Assembly (NCBI GenBank): GCA_938011325.1
Contig: CALLUD010000013.1
Span: 7,461-71,460, forward strand
Reading direction: 5' to 3'
DNA length: 64,000 bases
DNA from: an uncultured Spartobacteria bacterium
Lineage (GTDB): Bacteria > Verrucomicrobiota > Verrucomicrobiia > Chthoniobacterales > JAATET01
Shown here: positions 20,501 to 64,000 of the stretch, in pieces
Layout: every line of letters starts with the position of its first letter
Numbering within the stretch: the first letter of the stretch is position 1
Made by a program: the position numbers and the translations under genes
Notes under the pieces: generated by a model
Database searches by the model: none
What the model saw: the letters and a program-made list of their open reading frames with translations, nothing else
What the model was told of the DNA's origin: nothing

Positions 20501-20679
20501 GATTCCTCGACCGTAAGCGCGTCCGCACCCACATACGTAGTGCTCACCTGAATCTGCGGGGGAACGATGTTCGGGAACTGCGAGACCGGCAGCCCGAGCA
20601 TGCTGACGACGCCAAAGATCACGAGGATGATCGAAATCACCATCGCGACGATCGGGCGATTGATGAAGAAACGGGACAT
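17509..20679 (-). CDS. RND multidrug efflux transporter, inner-membrane permease (AcrB/MexB, HAE1 family)
   Basis: 1056 aa. N-terminus [23 protein letters not shown], with 12-TM architecture and two large periplasmic loops. Confidence 0.93.
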
Positions 20680-21869: not shown

Positions 21870-22010
21870 CAATGTTGGCGCCCTGAAAACGCGCCGGGGG
21901 TGGCCGGTTGCCGCTTGCACGCTGAATCCCTTAACAACCGGTTGGGACTTCGGGAATGAAAAAGAGAAACGCTTGCCCTCGCGCAAGCCGGTTTCAAGCG
22001 GTCTTTTGCA

Positions 22011-22039
22011 TTGGCACGCACTTTGCCGCCTTGCATAAT
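22011..22039 (+). promoter_or_regulatory. Sigma70-like promoter candidate for the EAL gene
   Basis: TTGGCA (22011-22016), 17-nt spacer, CATAAT (22034-22039), 12 nt before the ATG at 22052. Confidence 0.5.
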
Positions 22040-22051
22040 GCCCGCTCATCC

Positions 22052-42296: not shown

Positions 42297-44300
42297 TCAA
42301 AGAGTTCGGCCATTGCGATTTTTCCAAAAAACCAGCGCACCCAGTCCGAAGAAAAACAGCCCCAGCAAATGCGGTTCCGGCACGGCCACCACACGCAACA
42401 CCCCCGTCTCGAGCAGGGAAGACGTGTCCCAAGCCAGGCCGTCCTGAAGCGCGGGAAGATCGTAGTTCGAGAACTCTCCACTGGCCGAGCCGGACCAGTC
42501 GAAAAGATCAAATTCGTTTCCGGCCTTCGGAGTGAAGCCGCCGATCAAGTTGATTCGAAGCGTTCCACCCTCCAGTTGGAAGTCTCCCGAGATCGTCAAC
42601 TGATCGTAGTTCGCCAATCCGTTCAAATCGAACGCGATCGTGCCGGCATTGCCGAGTTCCAGCCCGCCGATTTGCAGCGCTCCGGTGAAGCCAACGCCCG
42701 CAACGGCCAGAGCGCCTCCCACGATTTCCAATTCACCGGTGCCGAGTGCCTGATTGCTTGCCGAAAGCGTTCCGGCCTCGAGCACGGTTCCTCCCGAGTA
42801 GGTGTTTGCTCCGGTGAGGGTCAACACTCCCGTTCCATTCTTCACCAGATTGCCTGTGCCGCTTATGGCGCCTGCATAAGTCCAGGGATTGGCACGGGAA
42901 ATCACGACGGTCGCGTTGTTCTCGATGTCTCCCGCGATCGAGCCACCCAAGCCGCCCTGTCCAATTTGGAGGGTGCCGCCCTCGACTTTGGTCAGGCCGG
43001 TGTAGGTGTTCTCTCCACTCAGCAGCAACCGGTAGTCGCCACGTTTCGTCAACCCTCCACTCCCCGAGATGCCTGCGTAATAGGAGTAGTCCATCTCCCG
43101 ATTGAAAATCAGCTCTCCATCGTTGATGACACTTCCATTCAGCCCTCCGAATCCCGCAATTTCGACCGCACCTTCGGCGATTGTCATCGTCCCCGTGCCA
43201 TACTTGCCATTCTTCATGACGAAGGTGCCGCTTCCCAATTTGGTGAAATCACCATTTCCTGAGATCCCGTTTTCGTAAACGAAGGTGCCTGAATGGTTCA
43301 CCACCAGGTGCGCTGAATTTATCACGCTTCCCGTGAGCGACGGCAATGAACCGCCGTTCCCGATCTGCAGGGTTCCTTCCTCGACGTAGAGCGTGCTGTC
43401 GATCTTCGCACCCAGCAACGTGAGTTTGTTTTCCCCTACTTTGGTAATCCTACCTCCGGCTCCGGTGACCGTGTTGGTGAAAACAATGTCGTCCGAGCGG
43501 TCAAAGACCAGATTGCCAGAGTTCTCGATCTTTCCCGTAATCCAGCCGGAAGATCCGCCATTTCCAATTTTAAGTGTGGCGTTACTGCCGATGGCCGTGC
43601 CTCCGGTGTGGGAAAGGTTGCCGGTGACGACTACGGTTCCGGTTCCCAACAACTGCACTTGGCCGGTGCCACTCACATTGCTGGCGAGGATGAAATTGTC
43701 ATTGTGGTTGAAGAGAAGGCTCCCGCTCGTCTTGCCAAATTCGATTGCTGCGGCGGAGAGCTTTCCCGACGGAAGCGGCTGCATACCGCTTCTCGCACCG
43801 ATCGTCAAAACGCCGGCATTCCCCACTCCGATTCCGGAAACGATGTGGATCGTTCCCTGCCCATCGCCGACGGACAATTCCCCGCCCGAGTGCAGGTAAA
43901 CATAGCCCTCACCGGATTCTCCGATCTCCAGCGAATCCGTATTCCACACACCTCCCACGTATACCGTGCCCTTCCCTCCCGACTCAGCTCCCAACACGGC
44001 GGATCCACTCTTCAGAGACCCTCCTTCGAGAATATAGACAGAGCCCGAATTGGCCGGGCCAATCATCAGGCTCTCGCCCGCATTCGCAGCAACTCTGCTT
44101 CCGATATTGGCACTCCCATTGCTGCCAATAATCGTGAGACTGGTGCTCTCATCGGGGACTCCGCCGCTCCAATTTTGCTCAGCATCCCACTGACCGCTCC
44201 CCGCGATCCATTGCGAAGTTGCGGCGAAAAGACTGCTCATCCCGGAAATCCACAGCACCGGAACGATAATACGCACCCGAGATGGGAGGACGTGAAGCAT
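42297..44300 (-). CDS. Autotransporter-associated beta-strand repeat protein with PEP-CTERM anchor
   Basis: 667 aa with a signal peptide. Repeats such as GTGVLTLTGANTYSGGTVLEAGTL and LLLSGENTYTGLTKVEGGTLQIG. C-terminus VAVPEPHLLGLFFFGLGALVFWKNR. It abuts the downstream LamG gene with no gap. Confidence 0.88.
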   Translation of the reverse strand: MLHVLPSRVRIIVPVLWISGMSSLFAATSQWIAGSGQWDAEQNWSGGVPDESTSLTIIGSNGSANIGSRVAANAGESLMIGPANSGSVYILEGGSLKSGSAVLGAESGGKGTVYVGGVWNTDSLEIGESGEGYVYLHSGGELSVGDGQGTIHIVSGIGVGNAGVLTIGARSGMQPLPSGKLSAAAIEFGKTSGSLLFNHNDNFILASNVSGTGQVQLLGTGTVVVTGNLSHTGGTAIGSNATLKIGNGGSSGWITGKIENSGNLVFDRSDDIVFTNTVTGAGGRITKVGENKLTLLGAKIDSTLYVEEGTLQIGNGGSLPSLTGSVINSAHLVVNHSGTFVYENGISGNGDFTKLGSGTFVMKNGKYGTGTMTIAEGAVEIAGFGGLNGSVINDGELIFNREMDYSYYAGISGSGGLTKRGDYRLLLSGENTYTGLTKVEGGTLQIGQGGLGGSIAGDIENNATVVISRANPWTYAGAISGTGNLVKNGTGVLTLTGANTYSGGTVLEAGTLSASNQALGTGELEIVGGALAVAGVGFTGALQIGGLELGNAGTIAFDLNGLANYDQLTISGDFQLEGGTLRINLIGGFTPKAGNEFDLFDWSGSASGEFSNYDLPALQDGLAWDTSSLLETGVLRVVAVPEPHLLGLFFFGLGALVFWKNRNGRTL

Positions 44301-52850: not shown

Positions 52851-53627
52851 TTATTCCGCCAGCAGCTTCACGGTATTGACGCGCTCGAACATCTCCTGCG
52901 GATTGTCCCGCATCGCCTTCGCCGGGCCGACGCAAATTTCGTCGAGACCGGCAGCCAGTCCCGCCCAGGCCTCCGCGACGAATTCCGAAACGGGAATGCC
53001 GATCTCGCGTCCGCGCGGCCCGATGTAGTCGTGCAGCTCCGTCGCCACCGCGGGCGGCGCGATCTCGATCACCCGCACGTTCGTCTCCCGCAGTTGATGT
53101 CGCAGCGAGAGCGTGAAGGAATGGAGCGCCGCCTTCGTCGCGCAATACACCGGCACCTGCGCGAGCGGCACGAACGCGAGTCCGCTCGAGATGTTGATGA
53201 TCGTCGCGCGCGGCTGCTGGAGCAGGTGCGGAAGAAACGCCGCCGTGGCGCTGAAGAGCGCGCGCAGGTTCGTGTCGAGTTCCAGATCGCAGAAATCCAG
53301 CGGCGTCGGCTGCGTCAGGTCAAACACGCGCTGCACGCCGGCATTGTTGATGAGGCAGTCGACCGGGCCAAACTTTGCCGGAATCCCCTCCGCGGCGCGG
53401 GCGAGCGCGGCGCGGTCGGTGATGTCGAGCGGATACGCCTGGATGCCCGGCGTCCCGCGGGAGACCTCCTCCAGCGCCGCCACGCGCCGGCCGGTGATGG
53501 TCACGCGGGCGCCGTGCCTGGCCAGGGTTTCAGCCAGCGCGCGGCCAATGCCGGAGCCGCCGCCGGTGATCACTGCGTGCTGTGTGGAAAACTTCGAGTC
53601 GTCGTGAACTTGATTTTCGGTGCTCAT
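52851..53627 (-). CDS. Short-chain dehydrogenase/reductase (SDR) family oxidoreductase
   Basis: The last 258 codons of track ORF 52851..54662, from MSTENQVHDD (complement of 53625-53627). Contains ITGGGSGIGRA, NNAG and YCATKAA. Confidence 0.88.
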   Translation of the reverse strand: MSTENQVHDDSKFSTQHAVITGGGSGIGRALAETLARHGARVTITGRRVAALEEVSRGTPGIQAYPLDITDRAALARAAEGIPAKFGPVDCLINNAGVQRVFDLTQPTPLDFCDLELDTNLRALFSATAAFLPHLLQQPRATIINISSGLAFVPLAQVPVYCATKAALHSFTLSLRHQLRETNVRVIEIAPPAVATELHDYIGPRGREIGIPVSEFVAEAWAGLAAGLDEICVGPAKAMRDNPQEMFERVNTVKLLAE

Positions 53628-53690: not shown

Positions 53691-54692
53691 ATGTCCGCTC
53701 CTCCGGAAGGATTGCCTGATTCTCCGGCACCCTGTTTTCGACCGATGCCAAACGCCCTCACCGTCCCGGTTCCCCGACAACGTCGCGTGCCGCCCGCCGT
53801 CCGGCCATCGGGCACGAATGCGCGGATGGTCCAGCTCCTTTCCGAGCTCGCGCGCGGTGAAGGCTTCCTGCCGTCGCGCCTGCCCGGAGTGCGGTTCATG
53901 CGGACCGTGCGGCACATTCCCCGCGCGCCGATTGTCTACGAGCCAAGCATCGTGATCATTGCCCAGGGACGAAAGATCGGCCACCTCGCCGGGCGCCGCT
54001 TCGTCTACGATCGCGACCACTTTCTCGTCCTTTCCATCCCCCTGCCGTTTGAATGCGAAACCTTCGGCACCCCTGACGAACCGGTCCTCGGCGTGAAGAT
54101 CGGCGTCACTCCCGCGCTCGTCACCGAGTTGCTTCTCGAAATGAACGCGACGCCGCCCGACAACGGCGCGGAAACCCTCCGCACCGCGCGCCTCGACGCG
54201 CCCATCGCCGACGCCACCGTGCGTCTCCTCGAGAGCCTGCGTTCCGACGCCGACGCACGCATTCTCGGCTCGCAGATCATCCGCGAGATCACCTACCGCG
54301 TGCTGCTCAGCGAAGCCGGCGAAATGCTGCACCCGCTCGCCGCGCCCGACAGCACGGCCGGCCGGATCCACCGCGTGCTGCATCGCATCCACACCGATTT
54401 CGCCCGCCCCCTCGACGTGCCCACCCTCGCCCGCGAAGCCGGGATGAGCGTTTCGACGTTTCACGAGCGGTTCAAGGCGGCCACCTCGTCCCCGCCCCAC
54501 CAATACCTCAAATCGATCCGCCTGCACCGCGCGCGCACGCTCATGGTCAACAACGGCATCAGTGCCGCCGAAGCCGCCGCCCGGGTCGGCTACGAGAGCG
54601 CGTCGCAATTCAGCCGCGAATTCAAACGCTTCTTCGGCACCACCCCCGCCGCCGCCGCCCAATCCCTCCGCCAGACCCTCACGCGGTTGTAA
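53691..54692 (+). CDS. AraC-family transcriptional regulator (AraC N-terminal sensing domain plus HTH)
   Basis: 333 aa, divergent from the SDR gene. C-terminal HTH: LAREAGMSVSTFHERFK...VGYESASQFSREFKRFFG. An alternative start MPNALT lies at 53745. Confidence 0.85.
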   Translation: MSAPPEGLPDSPAPCFRPMPNALTVPVPRQRRVPPAVRPSGTNARMVQLLSELARGEGFLPSRLPGVRFMRTVRHIPRAPIVYEPSIVIIAQGRKIGHLAGRRFVYDRDHFLVLSIPLPFECETFGTPDEPVLGVKIGVTPALVTELLLEMNATPPDNGAETLRTARLDAPIADATVRLLESLRSDADARILGSQIIREITYRVLLSEAGEMLHPLAAPDSTAGRIHRVLHRIHTDFARPLDVPTLAREAGMSVSTFHERFKAATSSPPHQYLKSIRLHRARTLMVNNGISAAEAAARVGYESASQFSREFKRFFGTTPAAAAQSLRQTLTRL

Positions 54693-54829
54693 CTCACGTC
54701 ACGGACGCGGAAGGGCGCGGAAGGTGCGCGCTGCAGGTTTATCGCCCTCGACGCCCGTCACCCGCCCTGGTCGCCTTTCGATTGAACGCGATTACCTCGC
54801 GCTGCATGGTCTGCTCCGGGAGGCAAACA

Positions 54830-55597
54830 ATGAAGGTTCATTCACAGGTGCCGGGTTCACCCCTGCGCGGAGTCGTCAGTCGATTTCTCGTGGTCGAATC
54901 GCCCGAGGAACGAAGTGACATGCATTTGCCCGAGACAGGATTCATCGCCGCCTTTCGTCTGAGCGGAGAATGCCAGGTTGGCGATCGGCGATTTGCCTCG
55001 CCGGCGATTCTGACCGGCTTGACCGATCATCTGCGTCGCCACCAACACGGTCGCAACAACACGACACTGGTCGTTCATTTCACGCCGCTGGGGGCGTCGG
55101 CATTCACGCACGAAGCACTCGACGGATTGTGGAATGCCAGCGTGGATCTCGGCAACGTGATCGGCAGCGCCGCCGAGGTCAGCGAAGTCGTCGAGCGTCT
55201 CTTAGAGGCGCCTGATCCCACGCAGCGCATCGAAATTGTCGAGCGCTTCTTGCTCGCCCGGCTCGACAGGCACAAGCCTGATCCTTTGGTGAGCGCCGCG
55301 ATCGATTGGATGGCCGAGCATGTGCCGGCCCCCGCGCGCGTTAGGGACTTGGTGCGCCACATCGGATTGAGCCAAAGCGCGCTCGAACGCCGCTTCCGCC
55401 GGGTGGTGGGCGCCGCGCCGAAGCGTTTTCTCTCCCTGCTCCGCCTCAAGCGGGCTGCGCAACTCCTTCAAAGCGGGACGTCGCTGACGACAGCTGCGCA
55501 CGCCGCCGGCTACTGCGACCAGGCACATTTCAATCATGAGTTCCGACGCATGGCCGGTCTCACGCCGGGCGAGTATTTTACCCAGGCACGAGCCTGA
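54830..55597 (+). CDS. AraC-family transcriptional regulator
   Basis: Preferred start MKVHSQVPG at 54830; the track start is 54782. C-terminal HTH: VRHIGLSQSALERRFRR...AGYCDQAHFNHEFRRMAGLTPGEY. Confidence 0.82.
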   Translation: MKVHSQVPGSPLRGVVSRFLVVESPEERSDMHLPETGFIAAFRLSGECQVGDRRFASPAILTGLTDHLRRHQHGRNNTTLVVHFTPLGASAFTHEALDGLWNASVDLGNVIGSAAEVSEVVERLLEAPDPTQRIEIVERFLLARLDRHKPDPLVSAAIDWMAEHVPAPARVRDLVRHIGLSQSALERRFRRVVGAAPKRFLSLLRLKRAAQLLQSGTSLTTAAHAAGYCDQAHFNHEFRRMAGLTPGEYFTQARA

Positions 55598-56567: not shown

Positions 56568-57407
56568 CTAAAACTCGCGCCAGATGGCCACTTTGAATCC
56601 TCCTCCGCCACCGGTCGCCCGGCCCGCCACGGAAAAATACGGTCCGGCCTGAATCGTCCAGTGCCGCGCCGGGTGCACGAGCAGAGAGCCGCCAATCTTG
56701 ATGAGGTCGAAATCAGTGGTGAGCAGGATGTTGTTGCCGACGTATTGAGGCTGGTCATTGCCCAGGCCGTGAATGCCACTTGCCTCGAGGTAGTAAATTT
56801 CCAGCCAATCGGTGAGGTGCAACCCCGCGGTGACATACCAGCGCAGCTCGTCGGCGGGCGCACCCGTGCGCAGGCGAAAGCCGGCTCCCGCGTCCACAAA
56901 GCCCCAACGCTCGAACACCTTGTAACTCGAACCAATATAGTAGGCGAGTTCCACGTCCGTCTGCCCGTTGCCCAGCGCCGGCTGCACGTTCACATAATAG
57001 GGTCCGGGAATTTTCACCGTGAGCTGGAGCGACTGCGGAATTCGTTCGAAAAGCTGATAGCGCAATCCGACCTCCTGGTCGGCGGGGCCAAAGTTGTTCT
57101 GACGTCCAAAGCGATTCTCGAACGTCAACGCGTCGAGGAAGAAGTTCCCGATCAAGGTGAGCCGCTTGAAGAGGCCGTATTCGACATAGAGGTTCAGCTC
57201 GTTCTTGATGAACCGCCCCTCGTAGCCAAACGGCTCGAGATGCCAGCCGTCTCCGAATTGAGTGTCCGTGCCGTAGAAGTAATACGTCAGAATCGAGAGA
57301 CCGCGCCCCTCGGGTTGTGCCCAGGCTCCTGCGTGCAGGTTTCCCGGTAGAAGAAGAAGAACGAGCCCTGTCGCGAGGGTGGATAATTTCCGGCAAATAG
57401 GCGGCAC
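56568..57407 (-). CDS. Predicted outer-membrane beta-barrel protein, divergent from the synthase operon
   Basis: Alternating-pattern strands (LSILTYYFYG, LNLYVEYGL, VELAYYIGSSYKV, ...) and a C-terminus GFKVAIWREF ending in Phe. A GTG start (complement of 57405-57407) gives signal peptide (M)PPICRKLSTLATGLVLLLLPGNLHA. The track ATG at 57479 adds 24 non-signal residues. Confidence 0.65.
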   Translation of the reverse strand: MPPICRKLSTLATGLVLLLLPGNLHAGAWAQPEGRGLSILTYYFYGTDTQFGDGWHLEPFGYEGRFIKNELNLYVEYGLFKRLTLIGNFFLDALTFENRFGRQNNFGPADQEVGLRYQLFERIPQSLQLTVKIPGPYYVNVQPALGNGQTDVELAYYIGSSYKVFERWGFVDAGAGFRLRTGAPADELRWYVTAGLHLTDWLEIYYLEASGIHGLGNDQPQYVGNNILLTTDFDLIKIGGSLLVHPARHWTIQAGPYFSVAGRATGGGGGFKVAIWREF

Positions 57408-58662
57408 GGCGCGGATTCTTAGCTTGCCTGACCGGAGTCGCAAGGCACTATCTGCACGGATTTGCTCAACAGAAGCCAACGAATTGGAAGCATCCCCGAA
57501 TCGTCAAGCCATCGTCCACTATCTCCAGACGAATCGTTTCTGTGAAGGACTGCCGTTTCCGATCCTCGAGGCTCTGGCCAGCTCGATCACCGTCCTGGAA
57601 ATGGAAAAGGATGCCGTTCTTTTCGAGGACGAGGACCTCACGCACTCCGTCCATCTCGTCGCCTCGGGGGAAATCGGGTTTCTGATTCGCATGACCCCCA
57701 GCTCGGGCTTCACGGAAATCGCCCGCGTCGGGAAGAACGAATTTTTTGGCGAAGGCGCGGCCATCGACGACCTCGCCGCCCAGGAACAGAGTCCCGGCGC
57801 AAACGGCTTCATCCGCCGCTCGGCGCGCAGCGCGCGCATCATCTGCCGGGAAAAGGCGCTCCTTCTCCGGCTGCCGGCCACGGAGTTTGAGCGCCTGCTC
57901 CGCGAGCACCCCCTGCTGCTCTGCCGGAATCTTCTGCGTTCGTCGTCCGACAAGCTCCGCATGGGCGTGCAGCGCACGTTCGACGAAGCCCTCGCCCGGG
58001 AAAGCCGGCACCTGCTGGCCCACATCAGCCACTGGCTCGCGCGCCGCATGGAGAATCCGGTGTCCACCCTCCGCCTCCAATCGGGCCTCCTCGCGGAACA
58101 GGACGCCGCCCGATCGGCAGCCCCCATCGCCGCCGCAACCGACGACCTCGCGGCCACCCTCCATTCCGTGGCGCGCCTGGCCGGCACCGCCCGGCAACGC
58201 CTCACGTGGGAAACCTTCGCCGTGCGCGACTGGTGGAACGAGACCGAATCCGGGGTCCTCGACCAACTCGAGCCGCGCGGGATCGCTCTCGACAGCTACC
58301 TCGAGGACTTCACCGTGGAATCGAGCCGTCCCCTGCTGCGCGACGCCATGCTCGACCTGCTCGCGGGTGTCGCCCGGCTCAACCCCGGGGAGGGTCGGAT
58401 CGGCCTCCGGGCCGGCCGCCACCACGGGCATGCCGAGATTCACGTCCACGCCATCCTGCCCGGTTTCAATGACGTCGTGGCCCGACGGCTGTTTGAGCCC
58501 TTCTCCGGCGACGGGATCGACCACGAAGCCGCCGTCCGCTTCGCGCTTGCCCGTCAGACCGCCCGGCGCCTGGGCGGCGACACCACGGTGAAGCGTCGCG
58601 ATGGCGAACGCGTCACCTTCGCCCTTACCCTGCCCACCCGTCGCCCTGATGCATCTGTTTGA
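57379..58662 (+). CDS. Cyclic-nucleotide-binding domain protein fused to a histidine-kinase-like module with a degenerate ATP-binding domain
   Basis: 427 aa. CAP_ED-like LEMEKDAVLFEDEDLTHSVHLVASGE...FFGEGA...RSARIIC. DHp-like LLAHISHWLARRMENPVSTL. The C-terminal HATPase-like fold ends ...GERVTFALTLP, but I could not find the canonical N, G1 or G2 boxes. The start is uncertain (ATG 57379 or TTG 57424). Confidence 0.7.
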   Translation: MDNFRQIGGTARILSLPDRSRKALSARICSTEANELEASPNRQAIVHYLQTNRFCEGLPFPILEALASSITVLEMEKDAVLFEDEDLTHSVHLVASGEIGFLIRMTPSSGFTEIARVGKNEFFGEGAAIDDLAAQEQSPGANGFIRRSARSARIICREKALLLRLPATEFERLLREHPLLLCRNLLRSSSDKLRMGVQRTFDEALARESRHLLAHISHWLARRMENPVSTLRLQSGLLAEQDAARSAAPIAAATDDLAATLHSVARLAGTARQRLTWETFAVRDWWNETESGVLDQLEPRGIALDSYLEDFTVESSRPLLRDAMLDLLAGVARLNPGEGRIGLRAGRHHGHAEIHVHAILPGFNDVVARRLFEPFSGDGIDHEAAVRFALARQTARRLGGDTTVKRRDGERVTFALTLPTRRPDASV

Positions 58663-59143
58663 TCACGGCCACCGCCATCCGCTCCTGATCGTCTGCAGCG
58701 ATGAAGCTCTGGCAAAATCCATGGCCCGGGCGGCGCCGGAGGACGTGTTCGAGATCACGATCGTTCCCACCCGCGGGGCCGCCCTGGACGCCCCGTCTCT
58801 CGGTGATTACCGCAGCTTCATTGTCGATTCGGTCCTGCCCGACGCGACCGGGGCGGACTTCGTTCACGAGCTTCGCGGGAAAAGGATCCAGGCACCGGTG
58901 CTGTTGTTGCGCTCGCTCGACTCCCCCGCCGGGCCCCGCGAGGCGGACGCCACTCTCACGAAACCGCTTTCGCTGCCGGAATACCGCCGCACCGTCGCGG
59001 AGCTGTTCCTCGACGGCGAGCCATTACGGGAACTCGGCCGCCGCCCGCAGCGGCGCCTGGCCCTTCACCCCGCGGCGGTCGTCGTTCCCCTCCTCCTCGG
59101 CGCCGGCATCGTTCTCACCTGGTGGCTCCTTCAAATCCCGTGA
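58649..59143 (+). CDS. Receiver (REC)-like domain protein with a C-terminal transmembrane anchor
   Basis: Preferred start MHLFDHGHRHPLLIVCSDE at 58649, overlapping the upstream gene by 14 nt. Contains FIVDSVLPDATG (phospho-Asp position), LLLRS and TKPL. C-terminal TM: LALHPAAVVVPLLLGAGIVLTWWLL. Confidence 0.65.
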   Translation: MHLFDHGHRHPLLIVCSDEALAKSMARAAPEDVFEITIVPTRGAALDAPSLGDYRSFIVDSVLPDATGADFVHELRGKRIQAPVLLLRSLDSPAGPREADATLTKPLSLPEYRRTVAELFLDGEPLRELGRRPQRRLALHPAAVVVPLLLGAGIVLTWWLLQIP

Positions 59144-61119
59144 ACACACTCCGCCTGCTCCTCATCCTCCTGCTCGTGGCCCGCGTGGCTGCGGCCCGGC
59201 CGATCGAAGTTCCGACCACGCTCGACGATGCCGGCATCGCGCAACCCGACCGCGTCCACGGCACGCAAACCATAAAGGACTACTTTCTGCCGCTGCCCTC
59301 GCGTGTCTTCGACGCCGCGCGCTCCCGCATCCTGGTCGAGGTGCAGCCCTCTCCGTTCGTCCACCCCGCCTCGCTGATCACGATTCTCATCAACGACCGT
59401 CCCGTCGACACCGCTCGCGCGGGCACAGGCGGAGTCGTCGTTCTCGAAGGTCCCATCCCTCCCGGCACCCGCAACGACGACCCGAGCCGGAACATCCTCA
59501 AGCTTTCGGTAAAGACCCACCTCCGCCCCGTCGATCCCAACACCGAGCTCGACGACGAATCCGCCTGGGTGGAAGTGCTGCCGTCCTCCACCTTCACCTG
59601 CCGGTTCGACGCGTCGTCGCCCGACTGGACCGCGCTCGGACGACTTGCAATCACGCTGCGTCCGCAAATCGAGGTCGTGCTCCCGAAGGAATCCGCCGCC
59701 CCGCAGATCGACCTCGCCCTCAAGACCGCCGCCTGGGCCGCCCGCCACGCTCCGGCGAGCCGGCTGCGGTTTCTCGACGAGGACGCTCCCGACGCCAAAG
59801 ACGCGGACCGCTTCGTGATCGAGGCCGCGACCGCCGGCCGCCCGCCGGTTGACATCACCATCTCGGAAACAGGCCGCATAATTCATTTGCGTGCCGGCAA
59901 CGAAGCCGAAGCTGCCAACACGTGGAGCACGCTGCTCGCCGCCGCGAACGTTCCGCTGCCCGGACCCGCGTGGAACGCATCGCAGGCCGCTCCGGAGGCC
60001 ACCTCGGCGGACGGCGGCCGCTTCGTCGGCGATCTCGACGCATCAGCGCTGGCCATAAACCGCGGCGCCGGCGACACGAGCCGGAGCTTCCGGTTCGACG
60101 CTGCAAAAATTTCTCCGAAACCCGCCAGCCTCTCGCTGCACCTGGCCGGCACGATTTCCCCGATCCACAAAGGCGCCGAGCCCATCGTCGCAGTGCTCCT
60201 CAACGACGAGTTGGTGTTCTCCGAGCGGCTTCCCGCCGGCTCGCGCGCGTTCGACTGGGAGATCCCGCTTGCCGCATCCCAGCTCCGCGGCAACAACGAA
60301 GTCACCGTGCGGATCAGCCCGCCCGCCGGTGACCGCACCCCGTATCTCTGGCAGATCAGCCGGGCAAGCACGCTCCGTGTGCGGGAACCCGCCGAGGCGA
60401 AGAAACCCACCGGCCTCCTCGAAGCGGCGCGGTATTTCGCGCCCGAGCCGTTCCTAGTCTGGCTCGCGCGACCCACGGACTGGCGCGTCGCCGCGTTCGC
60501 AGTCGCCTGGCTCCAACGTGTGAATCCGGCCGTCCAGCTCACGCCGCGCCTGACGACAGCGCTGGACGAAAACGTGTCTGCCGTCGTCGTGGGCGGACTT
60601 ACCGGCAAACAGCCGGAGGCCCTCACGCAACCGCCGGTCACATTTGGAGAAAACACGCTGACAATCCACTCGCGGCCCGGCATGCCCGCGCTGACGCTCT
60701 CGCCTGCGACGTCGCTCGGCATCTGGCAGCTTGGGGAGTCCGCGAAGGGCGCTCCGGTTCTGCTCGCCGACGGCTGGGGGCCCGCCGCTGCCGCCGCGCT
60801 TGAAAGCGTCTCCGCGCAGATGGCCGACTCGGCCTGGGTCGAGGGCGGGGACGCCATCGTCGGCGACGGCTCGACCCCGGTGCTCACCTTTGCCACGCGC
60901 GACACGCCTCTGCCACCCGTCGACGCCCTGCCCGAGGCGCTCGCCGCACCGACTTCCGCCGGGGCCATGCAAAACGCTCCGGCCCCGGCCGGCGGAATCG
61001 AATCCGCCCACGACGGCACACGGCATCTACGCTGGGTGGTGATCGCCGCACTCTGGATCGTGTTATCGGCCGTCATTGTCTGGATCTTCGAGCAGGGACG
61101 CCGCCGGGCGGTGAACTGA
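59140..61119 (+). CDS. BcsB-like periplasmic synthase subunit candidate (signal peptide plus C-terminal TM anchor)
   Basis: A GTG at 59140 overlaps the upstream stop (GTGA) and gives (M)NTLRLLLILLLVARVAAA; the alternative ATG is at 59122. Two internal segments fit the BcsB pattern (ASLITILINDRPVD and IVAVLLNDELVFSERLP). C-terminal TM: LRWVVIAALWIVLSAVIVWIF. The family call is tentative. Confidence 0.55.
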   Translation: MNTLRLLLILLLVARVAAARPIEVPTTLDDAGIAQPDRVHGTQTIKDYFLPLPSRVFDAARSRILVEVQPSPFVHPASLITILINDRPVDTARAGTGGVVVLEGPIPPGTRNDDPSRNILKLSVKTHLRPVDPNTELDDESAWVEVLPSSTFTCRFDASSPDWTALGRLAITLRPQIEVVLPKESAAPQIDLALKTAAWAARHAPASRLRFLDEDAPDAKDADRFVIEAATAGRPPVDITISETGRIIHLRAGNEAEAANTWSTLLAAANVPLPGPAWNASQAAPEATSADGGRFVGDLDASALAINRGAGDTSRSFRFDAAKISPKPASLSLHLAGTISPIHKGAEPIVAVLLNDELVFSERLPAGSRAFDWEIPLAASQLRGNNEVTVRISPPAGDRTPYLWQISRASTLRVREPAEAKKPTGLLEAARYFAPEPFLVWLARPTDWRVAAFAVAWLQRVNPAVQLTPRLTTALDENVSAVVVGGLTGKQPEALTQPPVTFGENTLTIHSRPGMPALTLSPATSLGIWQLGESAKGAPVLLADGWGPAAAAALESVSAQMADSAWVEGGDAIVGDGSTPVLTFATRDTPLPPVDALPEALAAPTSAGAMQNAPAPAGGIESAHDGTRHLRWVVIAALWIVLSAVIVWIFEQGRRRAVN

Positions 61120-62951
61120 TGCAGCTCGTCAACCATCTCTTCGAACGCGGAATCATCGACCCGGCTGCGCGCCGTCATGTCGAGCGACAGGCGGAAAGAT
61201 GGGGCGTGCCTGCCCACGGGCTTCTCCGCACGCTCGGCCTCGTCTCGGCCGAGTGCTACCTCGAACACTACGAACGCGTGTATCGCATCCCGCGTGCCGA
61301 GGCCGCGAACCTGCGGCTCTCGGAGGAGCTCGCGTCCATGGCTCCCTGGGAAACCTGGCGCGACGCGCTCGCCCTACCGGTCGCCCTCCCCGACGGCACG
61401 CCGCGCATCGCAGCGGTCGATCCCGTGAACCTGCCGCCTGCCCTGCGTGGAACGGAGGCGGTCCTCATCCTCGAGGAGGAATGGGTGGAACTCGCCGGAC
61501 GCTTCTACGGAACACCCTTTCTCGACGAGGCGATCCACGGCCTCGCCCGCGCGCATCCCCGCCTCTCCGCGCAACGCACGTTCACGACCTCCCAGCTGGT
61601 TATCGCGTGGCTGGCCGGCACCGCGATGCTCCTCGCGATCGGGCTCGCCCCCCGCATCTCATTCATCGCGCTCAACTGCGTGCTGAATGTCTTCTTCGCC
61701 ATGTGCGTCGGCTTCAAGACGCTGCTCGCCTTCGTCGGCTCCACGCGCAACGTCTCGCAAAAGGTCTCCCCGCTCGAAATCGAGCGCCTGGATGAGCGTT
61801 CGCTGCCCGTCTACACGATCCTCGTCCCGGTCTACAGGGAACCGACGGTCGTTCCGAATCTCATCCGCCAGCTCACCAGGCTCAACTACCCGCTCTGCAA
61901 GCTGGACGTGAAGGTGCTGCTTGAAGAGGGCGACGACGAAACGATCGCCGCCTTCCGCAGCGCCGCGCCACCGCCGAATTTCCACGCCCTCATCGTTCCG
62001 AACGCCCAGCCGAAGACAAAGCCCAAGGCCTGCAACTACGGCCTCTTCTTTTCCCGCGGCGAATACCTCGCCATCTACGACGCGGAGGATTTTCCCGAGC
62101 CCGACCAGCTCGAAAAGGTCGTCGCCGCCTTCCGCAAGCTCCCCGATCGCGTCGTCTGCATCCAGGGCTGCCTCAATTATTTCAACTGGCGCGACAACCT
62201 GCTCACGCGCCTGTTCACGCTCGAGTATTCGGGCTGGTTCGACTACAACCTGCCCGGCATGGAGGCGCTCAAGGTGCCGATCCCGCTCGGCGGCACGAGC
62301 AACCATTTCAAAATCGACCGCCTCCGCGAACTCGGCGCCTGGGACCCCTACAACGTCACCGAGGACGCCGACCTCGGCGTGCGCGCGAGCGCCCGCGGCT
62401 ACACCGTCGCCACGATCGACTCCACGACCTACGAGGAGGCCAACTGCGCCTACGGCAACTGGATCCGGCAGCGCTCGCGCTGGATCAAAGGCTACATGCA
62501 GACGTTCCTCGTGCACATGCGCGACCCGGTGCGGCTCATCCGCACGATCGGCCTGCGCGCCTTCCTCGGCTTCGTCCTTTTCATCGGCGGCACGCCGCTC
62601 GTCTTTCTCCTCAATCCCATTCTCTGGCTGCTCCTCGTCGTCTGGATCGCCACCGGCGCCACCGCAATCGCCGAGATCTTTCCGCCGTGGTTGTTCTACC
62701 TCGCGTTCGCCAATCTCGCGTTCGGCAACCTCATGGCGATCTACACCTGCGTGCTCGCCGTCTTCCGGCGCGGCAACTACCCGCTCGGCCTCTACGCCCT
62801 GCTGAATCCGCTTTACTGGATCCTCCACTCGATCGCCGCCTACAAGGGCCTGTGGCAGCTCATCGTGCGGCCGTTCTATTGGGAAAAAACGGTCCACGGC
62901 CTCTCGGCGCTGCCGGCGTCGTTCCACAGCGTCACGAAATCCCATGCGTAG
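61119..62951 (+). CDS. Processive family-2 glycosyltransferase (synthase type, multi-TM) with an N-terminal T2SSE_N/MshEN-like domain
   Basis: 610 aa; TGATG overlap with the upstream gene. Residues 1-115 are collinear with the GspE/PilB N-domain pattern (LVNHLFERGIIDPAARRHVERQ...LLRTLGLVSAECYLEHYERVYRIP...LALPVALPDGTPRIAAVDP). GT2 motifs: ILVPVYREP, YDAEDFP, VTEDADLG and QRSRWIKG. TM helices flank the catalytic domain. Confidence 0.85.
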   Translation: MQLVNHLFERGIIDPAARRHVERQAERWGVPAHGLLRTLGLVSAECYLEHYERVYRIPRAEAANLRLSEELASMAPWETWRDALALPVALPDGTPRIAAVDPVNLPPALRGTEAVLILEEEWVELAGRFYGTPFLDEAIHGLARAHPRLSAQRTFTTSQLVIAWLAGTAMLLAIGLAPRISFIALNCVLNVFFAMCVGFKTLLAFVGSTRNVSQKVSPLEIERLDERSLPVYTILVPVYREPTVVPNLIRQLTRLNYPLCKLDVKVLLEEGDDETIAAFRSAAPPPNFHALIVPNAQPKTKPKACNYGLFFSRGEYLAIYDAEDFPEPDQLEKVVAAFRKLPDRVVCIQGCLNYFNWRDNLLTRLFTLEYSGWFDYNLPGMEALKVPIPLGGTSNHFKIDRLRELGAWDPYNVTEDADLGVRASARGYTVATIDSTTYEEANCAYGNWIRQRSRWIKGYMQTFLVHMRDPVRLIRTIGLRAFLGFVLFIGGTPLVFLLNPILWLLLVVWIATGATAIAEIFPPWLFYLAFANLAFGNLMAIYTCVLAVFRRGNYPLGLYALLNPLYWILHSIAAYKGLWQLIVRPFYWEKTVHGLSALPASFHSVTKSHA

Positions 62952-64000
62952 AAACCTCACGCCGGCCGCCGGTTTCCTCTTCCTCGGACTGTGGGCCACC
63001 TATTGCGCCTTCGGCCTGCTGCTGGCGGAGGACTTCGGATTCCTCACCCGCGAGAATGCCGCCATTTCCGCCCGGGCCATTCTTGCCGCACACGGCGCCC
63101 CACTCTCGATGCTCACGCTCGGCGTGCCGAATCCGCCCCTCCCCTACGTTCTCGCCGTGCCCTTCGCGGCCCTTCATCTTCCCTTCCCGGCGATCTGGGT
63201 TTCGTCGCTCATGGGTGCGCTTCTCTGCACGTGGTTTTTCGTGTGGTTTCGCCGCGACGTCGCCCAGGCACCGGTCCTGATCCTTCCCCTTCTCCTGCTG
63301 CCCGTGCTCCCCGGCGTGCTCCACAGCTCGGCGGCGGGAACCCCCGCGATCGCGGCGATGGCGTTTCTCGTCTTTGCCGTTCATCTCGCGGCGCGGTTCG
63401 CGCTCGAACAGCAGACGTGGAACGACCTGCGGCGCGACGGCCGGCTGCCGGCGTGGTCCCATTCCGCGCAGGAGCAGGCCCATGCGATCCGCTTTCTCTG
63501 GGCTTCGGCCCTCCTTCTCGGCCTTGCCTCTTGCGCGCAGCCCGGTCTCCTTCTCGCGCTGCCCGTGTTTCTCCTCGCCACGCCATTCCTCCTGCCGCCG
63601 GCCGAGCGTCGAAACTGGCCGCGCATCCTCACCACGGCACTTCTCCTCTACCTTCCCATCCTCACGCTGCACGTCGCCACCGCCTCGCTGGGCGGATTGT
63701 TCACCGGCGATTTCTTTGCGCTGATGAAACCGCAGGGGGAAACGACTTTCACCGCCTGGTCACCCTCCGTCGCAAGCCTTCGCGAGCCGCTTGTGGGATT
63801 TCTCCTCACCGCACCCGTGCTCCTCTATGTCGTGATTCGCCTTCGCAACGCCGCCGTCGCGTTGCTGTGCGGCGTTCCCTTTCTCGTTCCGCTCATCGAG
63901 ACTGCGCTCGGCGGATCCCCCGACTGGCGAACGCTGCTCACCACCGCCCCGCTTCTCGCAACCGCCCTTCTCTTCCTCGGCTTTCGCTCGAACCGTTTTT
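62944..64000 (+). CDS. Polytopic membrane protein, possibly GT-C-like or a polymer-modifying/export component; the 3' end runs off the right window edge
   Basis: Hand translation, absent from the ORF track: MRRNLTPAAGFLFLGLWATYCAFGLLLAEDFGFLTRENA... The frame stays open for all 352 codons to the window end, with at least 8 hydrophobic helices. The ATG at 62944 overlaps the GT2 stop by 8 nt. Confidence 0.75.
   Translation, partial: MRRNLTPAAGFLFLGLWATYCAFGLLLAEDFGFLTRENAAISARAILAAHGAPLSMLTLGVPNPPLPYVLAVPFAALHLPFPAIWVSSLMGALLCTWFFVWFRRDVAQAPVLILPLLLLPVLPGVLHSSAAGTPAIAAMAFLVFAVHLAARFALEQQTWNDLRRDGRLPAWSHSAQEQAHAIRFLWASALLLGLASCAQPGLLLALPVFLLATPFLLPPAERRNWPRILTTALLLYLPILTLHVATASLGGLFTGDFFALMKPQGETTFTAWSPSVASLREPLVGFLLTAPVLLYVVIRLRNAAVALLCGVPFLVPLIETALGGSPDWRTLLTTAPLLATALLFLGFRSNRF

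What the first reader, a model, noticed from the sequence alone, without database searches (positions are those of the whole stretch)
56568..64000. Uncharacterised synthase-dependent exopolysaccharide-like system: cNMP-sensor pseudo-kinase, anchored REC, BcsB-like protein, MshEN-GT2 and a polytopic membrane protein, with a divergent beta-barrel
Five same-strand genes are joined by start/stop overlaps: 14 nt at 58649/58662, GTGA at 59140-59143, TGATG at 61117-61121, and 8 nt at 62944/62951. That pattern argues for a single translationally coupled unit. The catalytic core is a multi-TM processive GT2 with D, DxD, TED and QRSRW motifs, next to a periplasmic protein with BcsB-like topology and repeats. 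There is no PilZ domain and I see no BcsC/TPR, BcsZ, PgaA/B or Wza/Wzc-type partner. The input layer is instead a cyclic-nucleotide-binding kinase-like protein, a membrane-anchored receiver and an N-terminal MshEN-like domain on the synthase. The only outer-membrane candidate is a small divergent beta-barrel at 56568..57407. I do not recognise this combination as any described cellulose, PNAG, alginate, Pel, curdlan or NfrB-type system.
Basis: partly seen in the sequence, partly recalled or inferred. Interest (0 to 1): 0.85.

Follow-up and report, generated by a model that had tools for sequence, protein, structure and literature searches.

The report
Xag/Sfz-type exopolysaccharide operon, rewired regulation
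This is a real sugar-polymer synthesis and export operon from a soil verrucomicrobium. It belongs to an already described but biochemically unsolved family, Xanthomonas xagABCD and the "stalk" genes of iron-oxidising bacteria. Its unusual feature is a pair of degenerate signalling proteins where relatives have a c-di-GMP sensor.

Summary
All four start/stop overlaps, the domain calls and the divergent beta-barrel are real.

The window cuts the unit short. On the same contig the operon continues with:
- the rest of a 502-aa polytopic membrane protein;
- a GH113 beta-mannanase-family lipoprotein;
- a 1600-aa PEP-CTERM repeat protein.

The cluster is not an unrecognised system. It is a full homologue set of the sfz/sfb "stalk" cluster of Fe-oxidisers, which the literature equates with Xanthomonas xagBCD:
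- GT2 vs Sfz2: 41% identity over 620 aa, E 5e-137;
- GH113 vs Sfz4: E 4e-33;
- the BcsB-like protein, the membrane protein and the barrel link to Sfz1, Sfz3 and Sfz5 through shared HMM hits.

The GT2 family has at least 559 relatives in more than 10 phyla. In the 80 best loci a BcsB-like gene lies directly upstream in 62 and the membrane protein directly downstream in 62.

What is specific to this Chthoniobacterales-like clade (6 lineages):
- a cNMP-binding pseudo-kinase with no conserved His, N, G1 or G2 boxes;
- a membrane-anchored, partly degenerate receiver;
- an MshEN-like domain that has lost the c-di-GMP motif.

I infer a beta-1,4-mannan-like product. Verdict: new variant of a known kind, of moderate interest.

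The parts
56568..57407 (-). XagA/Sfz5-like outer-membrane beta-barrel (279 aa). It has a signal peptide and a C-terminal ...WREF beta-signal.
   Evidence: No Pfam or NCBIfam hit. The AF2 model has pLDDT 89.4 and pTM 0.81 and is all-beta, with about 12 long strands. Best PDB folds are the COG4313 channel 4rl8 (TM 0.67-0.70, E 2e-9) and FapF. Of 29 homologues, some are from Chthoniobacterales MAGs and two are named 'protein XagA' by JGI. The HMM of this family and Sfz5 hit the same ORFs in L014, L028, L029, L074 and L080.
57408..57483 (.). Divergent intergenic region between the barrel gene and the operon; presumed bidirectional control region.
   Evidence: Inferred from position only. The start of the plus-strand gene is uncertain (GTG 57379, TTG 57424 or TTG 57484); JGI calls 57484. 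The consensus scan found nothing convincing here.
57484..58662 (+). Cyclic-nucleotide-binding pseudo-histidine-kinase (392 aa). CNB cassette FFGEGA...RRSARSAR at 57742-57837; former H-box at 58021-58038; degenerate HATPase_c at about 58336-58640.
   Evidence: cNMP_binding 35.6 bits (GA 27.5); HATPase_c 23.2 bits, below GA. In five homologues the H-box His reads H/R/R/R/R. The N-box Asn, the G1 DxGxG and the G2 box are all absent. It sits next to the cluster in all six lineages.
58649..59143 (+). Receiver-like protein (164 aa) with a C-terminal transmembrane anchor (59078-59131).
   Evidence: Response_reg E 0.012 in Pfam; NCBIfam receiver models reach E 4e-8. The Asp at the acceptor position (IVDSV, 58820-58834), Ser and Lys-Pro are present here. 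In homologues the N-terminal acidic pair is DE/GN/GS, and the acceptor Asp is Ala in L090. The TM helix scores 2.25 on hydropathy. The gene is absent in L007, where the pseudo-kinase carries its own C-terminal TM helix.
59140..61119 (+). BcsB-family periplasmic partner (659 aa; Sfz1 counterpart) with a signal peptide and a C-terminal TM anchor (61033-61089).
   Evidence: PF03170 23.6 bits (GA 21). An exhaustive profile search found 19 representatives at E<=1e-30, then a tail of true BcsB proteins. hhalign against a BcsB alignment gives probability 100%, E 3.7e-41, 615 columns including the TM anchor. A BcsB-like gene lies directly upstream of the GT2 in 62 of 80 genome loci.
61119..62951 (+). 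Sfz2/XagB-family processive GT2 synthase (610 aa). N-terminal MshEN-like domain at about 61119-61523; DAED 62079-62090; TED 62358-62366; QRSRW 62469-62483; TM helices around residues 160-198 and 471-546.
   Evidence: Pfam GT2 models score 77, 68 and 46 bits; MshEN 23.6 bits. Identity to M. ferrooxydans Sfz2 is 40.6% over 620 aa, E 5e-137. It is far below the CelA and PgaC NCBIfam cut-offs. The N-terminus aligns to the T. thermophilus PilB/PilF N-domain, E 0.007. The c-di-GMP motif is absent. At least 559 relatives occur in genome contigs.
62944..64000 (+). XagC/Sfz3-like polytopic membrane protein, cut by the window end (full length 502 aa; it would end at window-equivalent 64452).

Beyond the window on the same contig:
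- GH113 lipoprotein, 64449-65534;
- 1600-aa PEP-CTERM repeat protein, 65531-70333;
- convergent GH5 endoglucanase, 70247-71413 (minus strand).
   Evidence: L001 is the same contig, with an offset of 51118. The protein has no Pfam hit. The AF2 model has pLDDT 61.7, is helical in the membrane part and is poorly defined in the roughly 100-aa C-terminal domain. This family's HMM and Sfz3 hit the same ORFs in L013, L015, L018, L029, L081, L086 and L087. One family member (L029) passes PMT_2, a GT-C family, at 29.8 bits against GA 26.1. The gene is directly downstream of the GT2 in 62 of 80 loci. GH113: PF22612 200.6 bits; all PDB hits are endo-beta-1,4-mannanases and both catalytic Glu are kept; the lipobox is LASC.

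Best explanation
The locus is a synthase-dependent exopolysaccharide biosynthesis and export operon of the Xag/Sfz type, in a Chthoniobacterales-like verrucomicrobium.

Shown by homology:
- An inner-membrane processive GT2 (Sfz2/XagB family) is paired with a membrane-anchored BcsB-family periplasmic protein.
- It is followed by a ~500-aa polytopic XagC/Sfz3-family protein, probably a divergent GT-C-fold protein.
- Next comes a periplasmic GH113 lipoprotein with an intact retaining-hydrolase active site.
- A 12-strand XagA/Sfz5-family outer-membrane barrel is encoded divergently.

Inferred mechanism:
- The GT2 polymerises a beta-linked chain from a nucleotide sugar and threads it through its own channel.
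- The BcsB-like protein guides the chain across the periplasm.
- The GH113 enzyme trims or releases it, as BcsZ and PslG do in their systems.
- The small barrel is the outer-membrane exit.
- Because the dedicated hydrolase belongs to a family known only for beta-1,4-mannanases, the backbone is most likely beta-1,4-mannan-like (about 45% likely).

Inferred regulation (about 35% likely):
- Relatives carry a canonical c-di-GMP-binding MshEN domain on the synthase. In this clade the motif is lost.
- The operon has instead gained a cNMP-binding pseudo-kinase and a membrane-tethered, partly degenerate receiver.
- These would act without phosphotransfer, as a ligand-controlled protein-protein switch on the synthase complex.

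The conserved 1600-aa PEP-CTERM beta-repeat protein is probably a surface partner of the polymer.
For: Gene set and order:
- six lineages share the order with unrelated flanks.

Homology to Sfz proteins:
- GT2 vs Sfz2 E 5e-137; GH113 vs Sfz4 E 4e-33.
- co-hits link Sfz1, Sfz3 and Sfz5 to the BcsB-like protein, the membrane protein and the barrel.
- Sfz4 is itself GH113, 134.7 bits.
- The literature chain from sfz to xag is in PMC4643136 and PMC8250860. The xag biofilm phenotype is in PMC3609779 and PMC8042644.

Individual components:
- BcsB membership.
- Processive-synthase motifs.
- Barrel.
- GH113 active site and lipobox.

Support for a mannan-like product:
- All seven PDB relatives of the GH113 are beta-1,4-mannanases.
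- In Xanthomonas the beta-1,4-mannanase ManA disperses the biofilm (PMC8042644).
- A phosphomannose isomerase flanks sfz in Zetaproteobacteria (PMC8250860).

Regulation:
- MshEN motif lost here but kept in 13 of 89 loci, with motif cores 29 residues apart.
- Pseudo-kinase and degenerate receiver.
- The TM anchor is swapped onto the kinase where the receiver is absent.
- The regulator pair is found only with this cluster in everything retrieved.
- A CHASE2-nucleotide cyclase is encoded in the same window.
Against: - No polymer, phenotype or transcript data exist for this organism.
- Similarity to the Xanthomonas Xag proteins themselves was not tested here. It rests on two papers and a JGI label.
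- GH113 is absent from most loci of the wider family (5 of 80), so the product may differ between clades.
- A GH5 endoglucanase is conserved next to the cluster in two lineages, which would fit a glucan or glucomannan as well.
- The GT-C assignment of the membrane protein rests on 2 PMT_2 and 2 DUF2142 hits among 35 members. The structural search found nothing.
- A 12-strand barrel is narrower than the 16-18-strand porins of known synthase-dependent systems.
- The CNB domain's ligand is unknown. CRP-type domains can bind c-di-GMP (Xanthomonas Clp, from my own knowledge).
- The MshEN-like domain could still bind a ligand in a non-canonical way.
Confidence: 0.8

Rival explanations
1. It is a divergent cellulose (or other beta-glucan / glucomannan) synthase: a BcsA-BcsB pair that lost PilZ, with GH113 and GH5 standing in for BcsZ.
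For: The BcsB homology is full length. The best NCBIfam GT2 hit is the CelA domain, E 1.7e-14. A GH5 endoglucanase (PDB relatives at E 5e-89 are cellulases) lies convergent to the operon and is conserved at 57% identity in L090.
Against: - The GT2 scores 52.8 bits against a CelA cut-off of 699 and has no PilZ.
- There is no BcsC and no GH8.
- The in-operon hydrolase is GH113, whose solved members are all mannanases.
- The GH5 gene is on the other strand and is absent in L007.
- The GT2 is orthologous to Sfz2 rather than BcsA.
Confidence: 0.12
2. It is a periplasmic glycosylation pathway rather than a secreted polymer. The GT2 would charge a polyprenyl phosphate, and the GT-C-like membrane protein would transfer the sugar to the giant PEP-CTERM protein or another envelope acceptor.
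For: GT2 plus GT-C is the classical pairing of such pathways (GtrB/GtrC, ArnC/ArnT; from my own knowledge). The membrane protein family has weak GT-C signals. A giant surface protein is co-transcribed and conserved in four lineages.
Against: - The GT2 carries the QxxRW and TED motifs, about six TM helices and a BcsB partner. These are hallmarks of processive synthases, not of polyprenyl-phosphate glycosyltransferases.
- The core BcsB-GT2-XagC triad occurs without any giant protein in most of the 80 loci.
- A dedicated endo-hydrolase and an OM barrel make little sense for protein glycosylation.
Confidence: 0.05
3. One reading: a categorically undescribed synthase-dependent system whose input is an MshEN c-di-GMP sensor plus a cNMP sensor.
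For: No curated NCBIfam or Pfam model names the system. The membrane protein and the barrel have no family hits.
Against: The whole core is homologous to the published sfz/sfb/xag-like cluster. The MshEN motif is degenerate.
Confidence: 0.03

Closest known systems
sfz1-6 / sfb1-4 'stalk formation' cluster of Fe(II)-oxidising Zeta- and Betaproteobacteria (Kato 2015, PMC4643136; Koeksoy 2021, PMC8250860)
   Same: - The order matches: BcsB-like (Sfz1), T2SSE_N/MshEN-GT2 (Sfz2), a ~500-aa unknown membrane protein (Sfz3), a ~340-aa hydrolase (Sfz4).
- There is also a ~300-aa unknown protein (Sfz5) and a giant protein at the end (Sfz6).
- Sequence links: Sfz2 41% identity (E 5e-137); Sfz4 29% identity (E 4e-33); Sfz1, Sfz3 and Sfz5 through shared HMM targets.
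- Sfz4 is GH113 like the hydrolase here.
   Different: - Sfz2 keeps two canonical c-di-GMP motifs; here they are lost.
- The barrel gene is divergent and upstream here, not downstream.
- The giant protein here is a PEP-CTERM beta-repeat protein. I did not compare it with the SH3-CotH protein Sfz6; the domain descriptions differ.
- The pseudo-kinase and receiver pair is absent from sfz.
- The sfz function is itself only a genomic inference.
Xanthomonas xagABCD (Tao 2010, cited in PMC3609779 and PMC8042644)
   Same: It is the only genetically tested relative. xagA and xagB are needed for the enhanced biofilm of rpf mutants (PMC3609779). Kato 2015 equates xagBCD with the GT2, membrane protein and hydrolase genes of the FeOB cluster. 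JGI labels the barrel homologues XagA. A beta-1,4-mannanase disperses the Xanthomonas biofilm, which fits a GH113 in the operon.
   Different: - The published operon has four genes (xagABCD), with no BcsB-like gene among them.
- It is regulated transcriptionally by DSF/RpfG.
- The polymer is unknown there too.
Bacterial cellulose synthase BcsA-BcsB-BcsZ-BcsC
   Same: A processive GT2 with QxxRW and TED motifs, a BcsB-family partner with a C-terminal TM anchor, a dedicated periplasmic endo-hydrolase and an OM barrel.
   Different: No PilZ. The GT2 is far below the CelA cut-off. The hydrolase is GH113, not GH8. The barrel has 12 strands and no TPR scaffold, where BcsC has 16 strands plus TPR.
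NfrB-NfrA c-di-GMP-controlled EPS synthase of E. coli (PMC8669469)
   Same: A GT2 synthase fused to an MshEN-type domain; a non-cellulose, non-PNAG product.
   Different: In NfrB the MshEN domain is C-terminal and binds c-di-GMP. Here it is N-terminal and the motif is degenerate. NfrA is a large TPR-barrel protein. NfrB has no BcsB partner.
Listeria PssA-E and B. subtilis YdaJKLMN (from my own knowledge, not checked here)
   Same: A GT2 plus a BcsB-like protein plus a glycoside hydrolase, with a separate degenerate signalling protein as the receptor. The Listeria product is a beta-1,4-ManNAc chain.
   Different: These are Gram-positive systems with no OM component. The hydrolase is GH8, and the receptor is a degenerate GGDEF protein that binds c-di-GMP.

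Membership tests
Xag/Sfz-type EPS cluster | Sfz2/XagB-type GT2 with an N-terminal T2SSE_N/MshEN-like domain | tested here: met
   40.6% identity over 620 aa to Sfz2 of M. ferrooxydans PV-1, E 5e-137, covering residues 7-607. The N-terminal domain is alignable across the family.
Xag/Sfz-type EPS cluster | BcsB-like gene directly upstream of the GT2 (Sfz1) | tested here: met
   hhalign probability 100% to BcsB proteins. The BcsB-like HMM and Sfz1 hit the same ORFs, for example in L012, L013, L017, L018, L074 and L079. Adjacent in 62 of 80 loci. Direct BLASTP to Sfz1 is only E 0.026.
Xag/Sfz-type EPS cluster | A ~500-aa polytopic membrane protein directly downstream (Sfz3/XagC) | tested here: met
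   The link is transitive. This clade's HMM and Sfz3 both hit the downstream ORF in L013, L015, L018, L029, L081, L086 and L087. Direct BLASTP gives E 0.14. Length and position match.
Xag/Sfz-type EPS cluster | Glycoside hydrolase Sfz4/XagD | tested here: met
   29% identity over 330 aa, E 4e-33. Both proteins are PF22612 GH113.
Xag/Sfz-type EPS cluster | XagA/Sfz5 ~280-300-aa protein | tested here: met
   The barrel HMM and Sfz5 hit the same ORFs in L014, L028, L029, L074 and L080. JGI names P0105 'protein XagA'; it is 45% identical and sits in an identical cluster, L092.
Xag/Sfz-type EPS cluster | Direct similarity to Xanthomonas XagA-D sequences | not tested
The claim rests on PMC4643136, PMC8250860 and the JGI label.
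Xag/Sfz-type EPS cluster | Required for biofilm or extracellular polymer | not testable with these tools
   Needs genetics; shown only for Xanthomonas (PMC3609779).
Cellulose synthase (Bcs) | BcsA equivalog with a C-terminal PilZ domain | tested here: not met
   TIGR03030 scores 52.8 bits against a cut-off of 699. There is no PilZ hit, and the protein ends right after the last TM helix.
Cellulose synthase (Bcs) | BcsC (TPR + 16-strand barrel) and BcsZ (GH8) | tested here: not met
   Neither was found in the 20 kb around the GT2. The cluster has a 12-strand barrel and a GH113 instead.
PNAG synthase (Pga/Ica) | PgaC equivalog plus PgaA/B/D | tested here: not met
   TIGR03937 scores 48.1 bits against a cut-off of 422. 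There is no deacetylase and no PgaA.
MshEN c-di-GMP receptor domain | T2SSE_N/MshEN fold | tested here: met
   PF05157 scores 23.6 bits (GA 23.1). The PilB N-domain 9g1w matches at E 0.007. This is marginal, but it is supported by the family alignment with canonical members.
MshEN c-di-GMP receptor domain | Two tandem 24-residue RLGxxLLxxGLLxxxxLxxxLxxQ motifs | tested here: not met
   There is no match to the strict, relaxed or core patterns in this clade. The triads read QLV and PAH. 13 of 89 loci keep the motif.
Two-component histidine kinase | Conserved phospho-accepting His and N, G1 and G2 ATP-binding boxes | tested here: not met
   The His is present only in this sequence; the other four homologues have Arg. 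There is no N-box Asn, no DxGxG and no GxGxG. HATPase_c is below GA.
Response regulator receiver | Acidic pair, acceptor Asp, Thr/Ser and Lys all conserved | tested here: inconclusive
   This protein has DE, D, S and K. In homologues the acidic pair is GN or GS, and the acceptor Asp is Ala in L090. Pfam scores 16.2 bits against GA 30.2.
GH113 beta-mannanase family | Family HMM match plus both catalytic glutamates | tested here: met
   PF22612 scores 200.6 bits. The sequence aligns to 7dv7 and 3civ at E 7e-44 and 8.5e-40. The acid/base Glu (vgsEm, at the position mutated in 7dvj) and the nucleophile Glu (ffaElg) are both kept. Substrate not testable.
GT-C glycosyltransferases (PMT_2/ArnT-like), for the 502-aa membrane protein | Family HMM match or GT-C fold | tested here: inconclusive

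The most novel reading that the evidence does not exclude
In this verrucomicrobial clade the ancestral c-di-GMP/MshEN switch on a widespread EPS synthase has been replaced by a phosphotransfer-dead two-component pair: a cNMP-binding pseudo-kinase docked to a membrane-tethered pseudo-receiver. The pair would gate the synthase post-translationally in response to cAMP or cGMP. The product would be a bacterial beta-1,4-mannan-type exopolysaccharide, exported through an unusually small 12-strand barrel.
Probability: 0.25. Interest if true: 0.75.

Novelty: new variant of a known kind. Interest (0 to 1): 0.5.

Why it matters
The Xag/Sfz-type machinery is one of the most widespread synthase-dependent polysaccharide systems with no known product. 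At least 559 genomes in more than ten phyla encode the GT2, usually with the BcsB-like and XagC-like partners.

This locus adds three testable points:
1. The dedicated hydrolase of both the verrucomicrobial clusters and the sfz (Zetaproteobacteria-type) clusters is GH113. It was annotated as GH10 in the sfz paper. This points to a beta-1,4-mannan-like backbone and links it to the old observation that a mannanase disperses Xanthomonas biofilms.
2. The partner membrane protein may be a divergent GT-C enzyme.
3. Signal input is modular. Canonical c-di-GMP-binding MshEN domains occur in some lineages and degenerate ones in others. Here a cNMP-binding pseudo-kinase and pseudo-receiver pair has been added.

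If the third point holds, it would be a rare case of a dead two-component pair acting as a second-messenger receptor for a polysaccharide synthase.

Tried and rejected
- **Profile searches against PDB sequences.** The BcsB-like family and the XagC-like family returned nothing useful.
- **Word-indexed search with the BcsB-like protein.** It found only 4 close relatives. The exhaustive search was needed.
- **Context of P0115.** This 30%-identical protein labelled 'XagA' sits in an unrelated neighbourhood, so that label is broad and weak on its own.
- **Metagenome scan with the pseudo-kinase alignment.** It used a single peptide pattern. It returned only the already known locus plus four unrelated CNB proteins, so it says little about distribution.
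- **Promoter and terminator scan of the divergent region.** Uninformative.
- **Rejected reading: an NfrB-type system.** The domain order is reversed, there is no NfrA, and the motif is lost.
- **Rejected reading: the GT2 as a polyprenyl-phosphate glycosyltransferase.** QxxRW, TED, multiple TM helices and a BcsB partner argue against it.
- **Literature searches.** Searches for GH113 in EPS operons and for xagB with c-di-GMP found no biochemical characterisation.

Full report
**1. Observation**

I read each junction from the sequence:
- ATG 58649 against stop 58662, a 14-nt overlap;
- GTGA at 59140-59143;
- TGATG at 61117-61121;
- ATG 62944 against stop 62951, an 8-nt overlap.

- cNMP_binding 35.6 bits (GA 27.5);
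- HATPase_c 23.2 bits, below its cut-off;
- Response_reg only E 0.012 in Pfam, but up to E 4e-8 against NCBIfam receiver models;
- BcsB 23.6 bits (GA 21);
- MshEN 23.6 bits (GA 23.1);
- three GT2 models at 46-77 bits.

The DAED, TED and QRSRW motifs are at 62079-62090, 62358-62366 and 62469-62483.

**2. The window cuts the unit**

The GT2 protein is on record on a 102-kb JGI contig (L001). The first 12,882 bases of L001 are identical to the end of the window. On that contig:
- the fifth gene runs to 502 aa;
- a 361-aa GH113 protein follows (PF22612, 200.6 bits);
- a 1600-aa PEP-CTERM protein with four repeats of about 252 aa comes last.

Both extra junctions are ATGA overlaps. A GH5 endoglucanase with a PEP-CTERM tail lies convergent to the end of the operon.

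**3. Conservation**

The same order recurs in five further lineages at roughly 25-60% protein identity with unrelated flanking genes. The order is: divergent ~280-aa gene, then cNMP protein, receiver, BcsB-like, GT2, ~500-aa membrane protein, GH113, and usually a giant protein.
- L005/L006, L091, L090 and L092 have the full order.
- L007 is a variant without the receiver and without the giant protein.
- The giant protein is 45-50% identical between L001, L005/L006 and L090. The GH5 gene is 57% identical between L001 and L090.

Named relatives of the barrel and the GT2 come from Chthoniobacterales and Methylacidiphilales MAGs.

**4. What each protein is**

*BcsB-like protein.* The word-indexed search found only four relatives. 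The exhaustive profile search found 19 cluster representatives at E<=1e-30, followed by a tail of proteins. All six tail proteins that I scanned are PF03170 members, with E-values down to 9e-59. Profile-profile comparison with eight tail proteins, the six scanned ones among them, gives probability 100%, E 3.7e-41, over 615 columns including the C-terminal TM anchor.

*Divergent 279-aa protein.* It has no family hit, but with 27 homologues it folds at pLDDT 89.4 into a 12-strand barrel. The closest folds are the COG4313 channel (TM 0.67-0.70) and the amyloid exporter FapF. It has a signal peptide and a terminal Phe.

*GH113.* It carries a lipoprotein signal, LASC. All seven of its PDB relatives are endo-beta-1,4-mannanases (E down to 7e-44). 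Both catalytic glutamates are conserved, including the one mutated in entry 7dvj.

*The 502-aa membrane protein.* It has about 11 helices and a C-terminal domain of about 100 aa. The model is poor (pLDDT 61.7) and has no structural match. Within a 35-member family alignment, two members hit PMT_2 and two hit DUF2142. One PMT_2 hit is above the gathering score, at 29.8 against 26.1 bits. To my knowledge both are GT-C families. I treat a GT-C fold as a lead, not a result.

**5. It is a described kind of cluster**

Two homologues of the barrel are named 'protein XagA' by JGI. That led to three sources:
- Xanthomonas xagABCD (PMC3609779, PMC8042644);
- the 'xag-like' cassette bcsB-xagB-xagC-xagD of Fe-oxidisers (Kato 2015, PMC4643136);
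- its renaming as sfz1-6/sfb1-4 (Koeksoy 2021, PMC8250860).

The Sfz description matches this operon gene for gene:
- Sfz1 is BcsB-like with a signal peptide and a C-terminal TM helix.
- Sfz2 is an 'EpsE-like T2SS' N-domain fused to a GT2 with QxxRW, DxD and TED.
- Sfz3 is an unknown protein of about 500 aa.
- Sfz4 is a hydrolase of about 340 aa.
- Sfz5 is an unknown protein of about 310 aa.
- Sfz6 is a giant protein.

I took the PV-1 sequences from the paper's supplement and compared them with this operon:
- GT2 against Sfz2: 40.6% identity over 620 aa, E 5e-137.
- GH113 against Sfz4: 29% identity over 330 aa, E 4e-33.
- The other three pairs are too diverged for BLASTP.

A scan of one genome per species with a GT2 alignment returned at least 559 relatives. 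The 80 best come from these groups:
- Bacteroidota (many Mucilaginibacter);
- Cyanobacteria;
- Ignavibacteria;
- Chloroflexi;
- Synergistota;
- Thermotogota;
- Aquificota;
- Gemmatimonadota;
- Proteobacteria.

I ran HMMs of each of this operon's proteins, plus the Sfz sequences, over all ORFs of those loci:
- The BcsB-like HMM and Sfz1 hit the same ORFs.
- The membrane-protein HMM and Sfz3 hit the same ORFs.
- The barrel HMM and Sfz5 hit the same ORFs.

Counts over the 80 loci:

| Partner | Loci (of 80) |
|---|---|
| BcsB-like, directly upstream of the GT2 | 62 |
| XagC/Sfz3-like, directly downstream | 62 |
| Barrel, anywhere in the locus | 21 |
| GH113 | 5 |
| Pseudo-kinase or receiver | 1 weak hit each |

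Sfz4 is itself a GH113 member (134.7 bits), although the sfz paper called it GH10.

I could not compare directly with the Xanthomonas proteins. That link rests on the two papers and the JGI label.

**6. What is particular here: the input layer**

*MshEN-like domain.* The family alignment of the GT2 N-terminus shows canonical MshEN sequences in some lineages. One example is RLGEALVARGLLTQQDLNRALEYQ...RIGRILIALGLI. The motif cores lie 29 residues apart, as in the 24+5+24 arrangement of Wang 2016 (PMC5013675). Only 13 of the 89 loci held at that point (L001-L089) match even the relaxed published motif. No locus of this clade or of the Bacteroidota does. In the window protein the two Arg-hydrophobic-Gly triads that contact the guanines read QLV and PAH. 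Canonical c-di-GMP binding is therefore unlikely. This is an inference from sequence.

*The cNMP protein is not a kinase.*
- The H-box His is present only in this sequence and is Arg in the four other homologues.
- The N-box Asn, the G1 DxGxG and the G2 box are missing in all five.
- A real hybrid kinase elsewhere in the window scores 76-99 bits on the same models.

*The receiver.* It keeps Asp, Ser and Lys here. Its homologues lose the acidic pair, and in L090 the acceptor Asp as well.

*The membrane anchor.* In L007 the receiver gene is absent, and the pseudo-kinase has acquired a C-terminal TM helix resembling the receiver's anchor. This suggests that the receiver's main role is to hold the pseudo-kinase at the membrane.

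I saw this pair only next to this cluster. My search for it elsewhere was shallow.

**7. Most likely mechanism**

Shown:
- the homologies above;
- the predicted locations, from signal peptides, the lipobox, TM anchors and the barrel fold;
- the conserved order.

Inferred:
- The GT2 polymerises and translocates a beta-linked chain.
- The BcsB-like protein guides the chain through the periplasm.
- The GH113 lipoprotein trims or releases it.
- The 12-strand barrel lets it out.
- The XagC-like protein modifies the chain or scaffolds the complex.
- The PEP-CTERM protein is a surface partner of the polymer.

Three independent hints point to a beta-1,4-mannan-like backbone:
- the GH113 family specificity;
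- dispersal of Xanthomonas biofilm by the mannanase ManA (PMC8042644);
- a phosphomannose isomerase beside sfz.

The conserved neighbouring GH5 endoglucanase keeps a glucan or glucomannan in play.

For regulation I propose ligand-dependent, phosphotransfer-independent control by the pseudo-kinase and receiver pair. A CHASE2-nucleotide cyclase 18 kb upstream shows the organism can make a cyclic nucleotide. It is not linked to the cluster in relatives.

**8. Verdict**

- The core is a member of a known but biochemically unsolved family. The regulatory module and the degenerate MshEN domain make it a new variant.
- Interest is moderate, 0.5. It is not low, because the family is very widespread, its polymer is unknown, and this variant offers concrete tests of both chemistry and signalling.

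Noticed in passing
window 36926-39070 (+): A CHASE2 sensor domain fused to a class III adenylate/guanylate cyclase (PF05226 E 1e-33, PF00211 E 4e-18). It is a possible source of the nucleotide sensed by the operon's CNB protein. No cyclase lies within 10 kb of the cluster in L005, L090, L091 or L092.
   Followed up: partly
L001 19129-20295 (-), window-equivalent 70247-71413: A GH5 endoglucanase with a PEP-CTERM tail lies convergent to the operon. Its PDB relatives are cellulases at E 5e-89. It is conserved at 57% identity in the same position in L090. It may act on the same polymer or be unrelated.
   Followed up: partly
L001 14413-19215 (+), window-equivalent 65531-70333: A 1600-aa Gly/Thr/Ser-rich protein with four repeats of about 252 aa (DIDHTF at residues 318, 570, 824 and 1075) and a PEP-CTERM anchor. 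It is joined to the GH113 gene by an ATGA overlap. It is conserved in L005/L006 and in L090 (there split into 1184 + 415 aa), and a giant gene follows GH113 in L091. It occupies the same position as the giant Sfz6 of Zetaproteobacteria; I did not compare the sequences.
   Followed up: partly
L007 5032-6216 (+): In this lineage the receiver gene is missing. The pseudo-kinase has lost the H-box segment and gained a C-terminal TM helix (...VAIFVGGAVGLTAWMLQ) resembling the receiver's anchor.
   Followed up: partly
L010-L089 (GT2 N-termini): Canonical tandem MshEN c-di-GMP motifs survive in only 13 of 89 loci (Chloroflexi, Thermocrinis, Gemmatimonadota and some Proteobacteria). They are lost in all Bacteroidota and cyanobacterial loci sampled. 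The pattern suggests repeated loss of c-di-GMP control in this synthase family.
   Followed up: partly
Sfz4 of M. ferrooxydans PV-1 (sequence from PMC8250860 supplement): The sfz paper describes Sfz4 as a family 10 glycosyl hydrolase. Against current Pfam it is GH113 (134.7 bits, E 5.6e-39), the same family as the hydrolase here.
   Followed up: yes
L012, L019, L034, L055, L060 (cyanobacterial loci): The GT2 ORFs are 764-773 aa, about 150 aa longer at the N-terminus than elsewhere. The start codons were not checked, so this may be an ORF-calling artefact or an extra domain.
   Followed up: no
window 12923-15511 (+), 42297-44300 (-), 17509-22049 (-), 39094-41265 (-): Two PATR-repeat (autotransporter-passenger-like) proteins, an AcrB/HlyD RND efflux pair, and a bona fide hybrid PAS-HisKA-HATPase-REC kinase. 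These look like ordinary neighbours.
   Followed up: no
window 53691-54692 (+) and 54782-55597 (+); 52851-53627 (-): Two adjacent AraC-family regulators and a short-chain dehydrogenase lie just upstream of the cluster (JGI calls). They are not conserved next to the cluster in other lineages.
   Followed up: no
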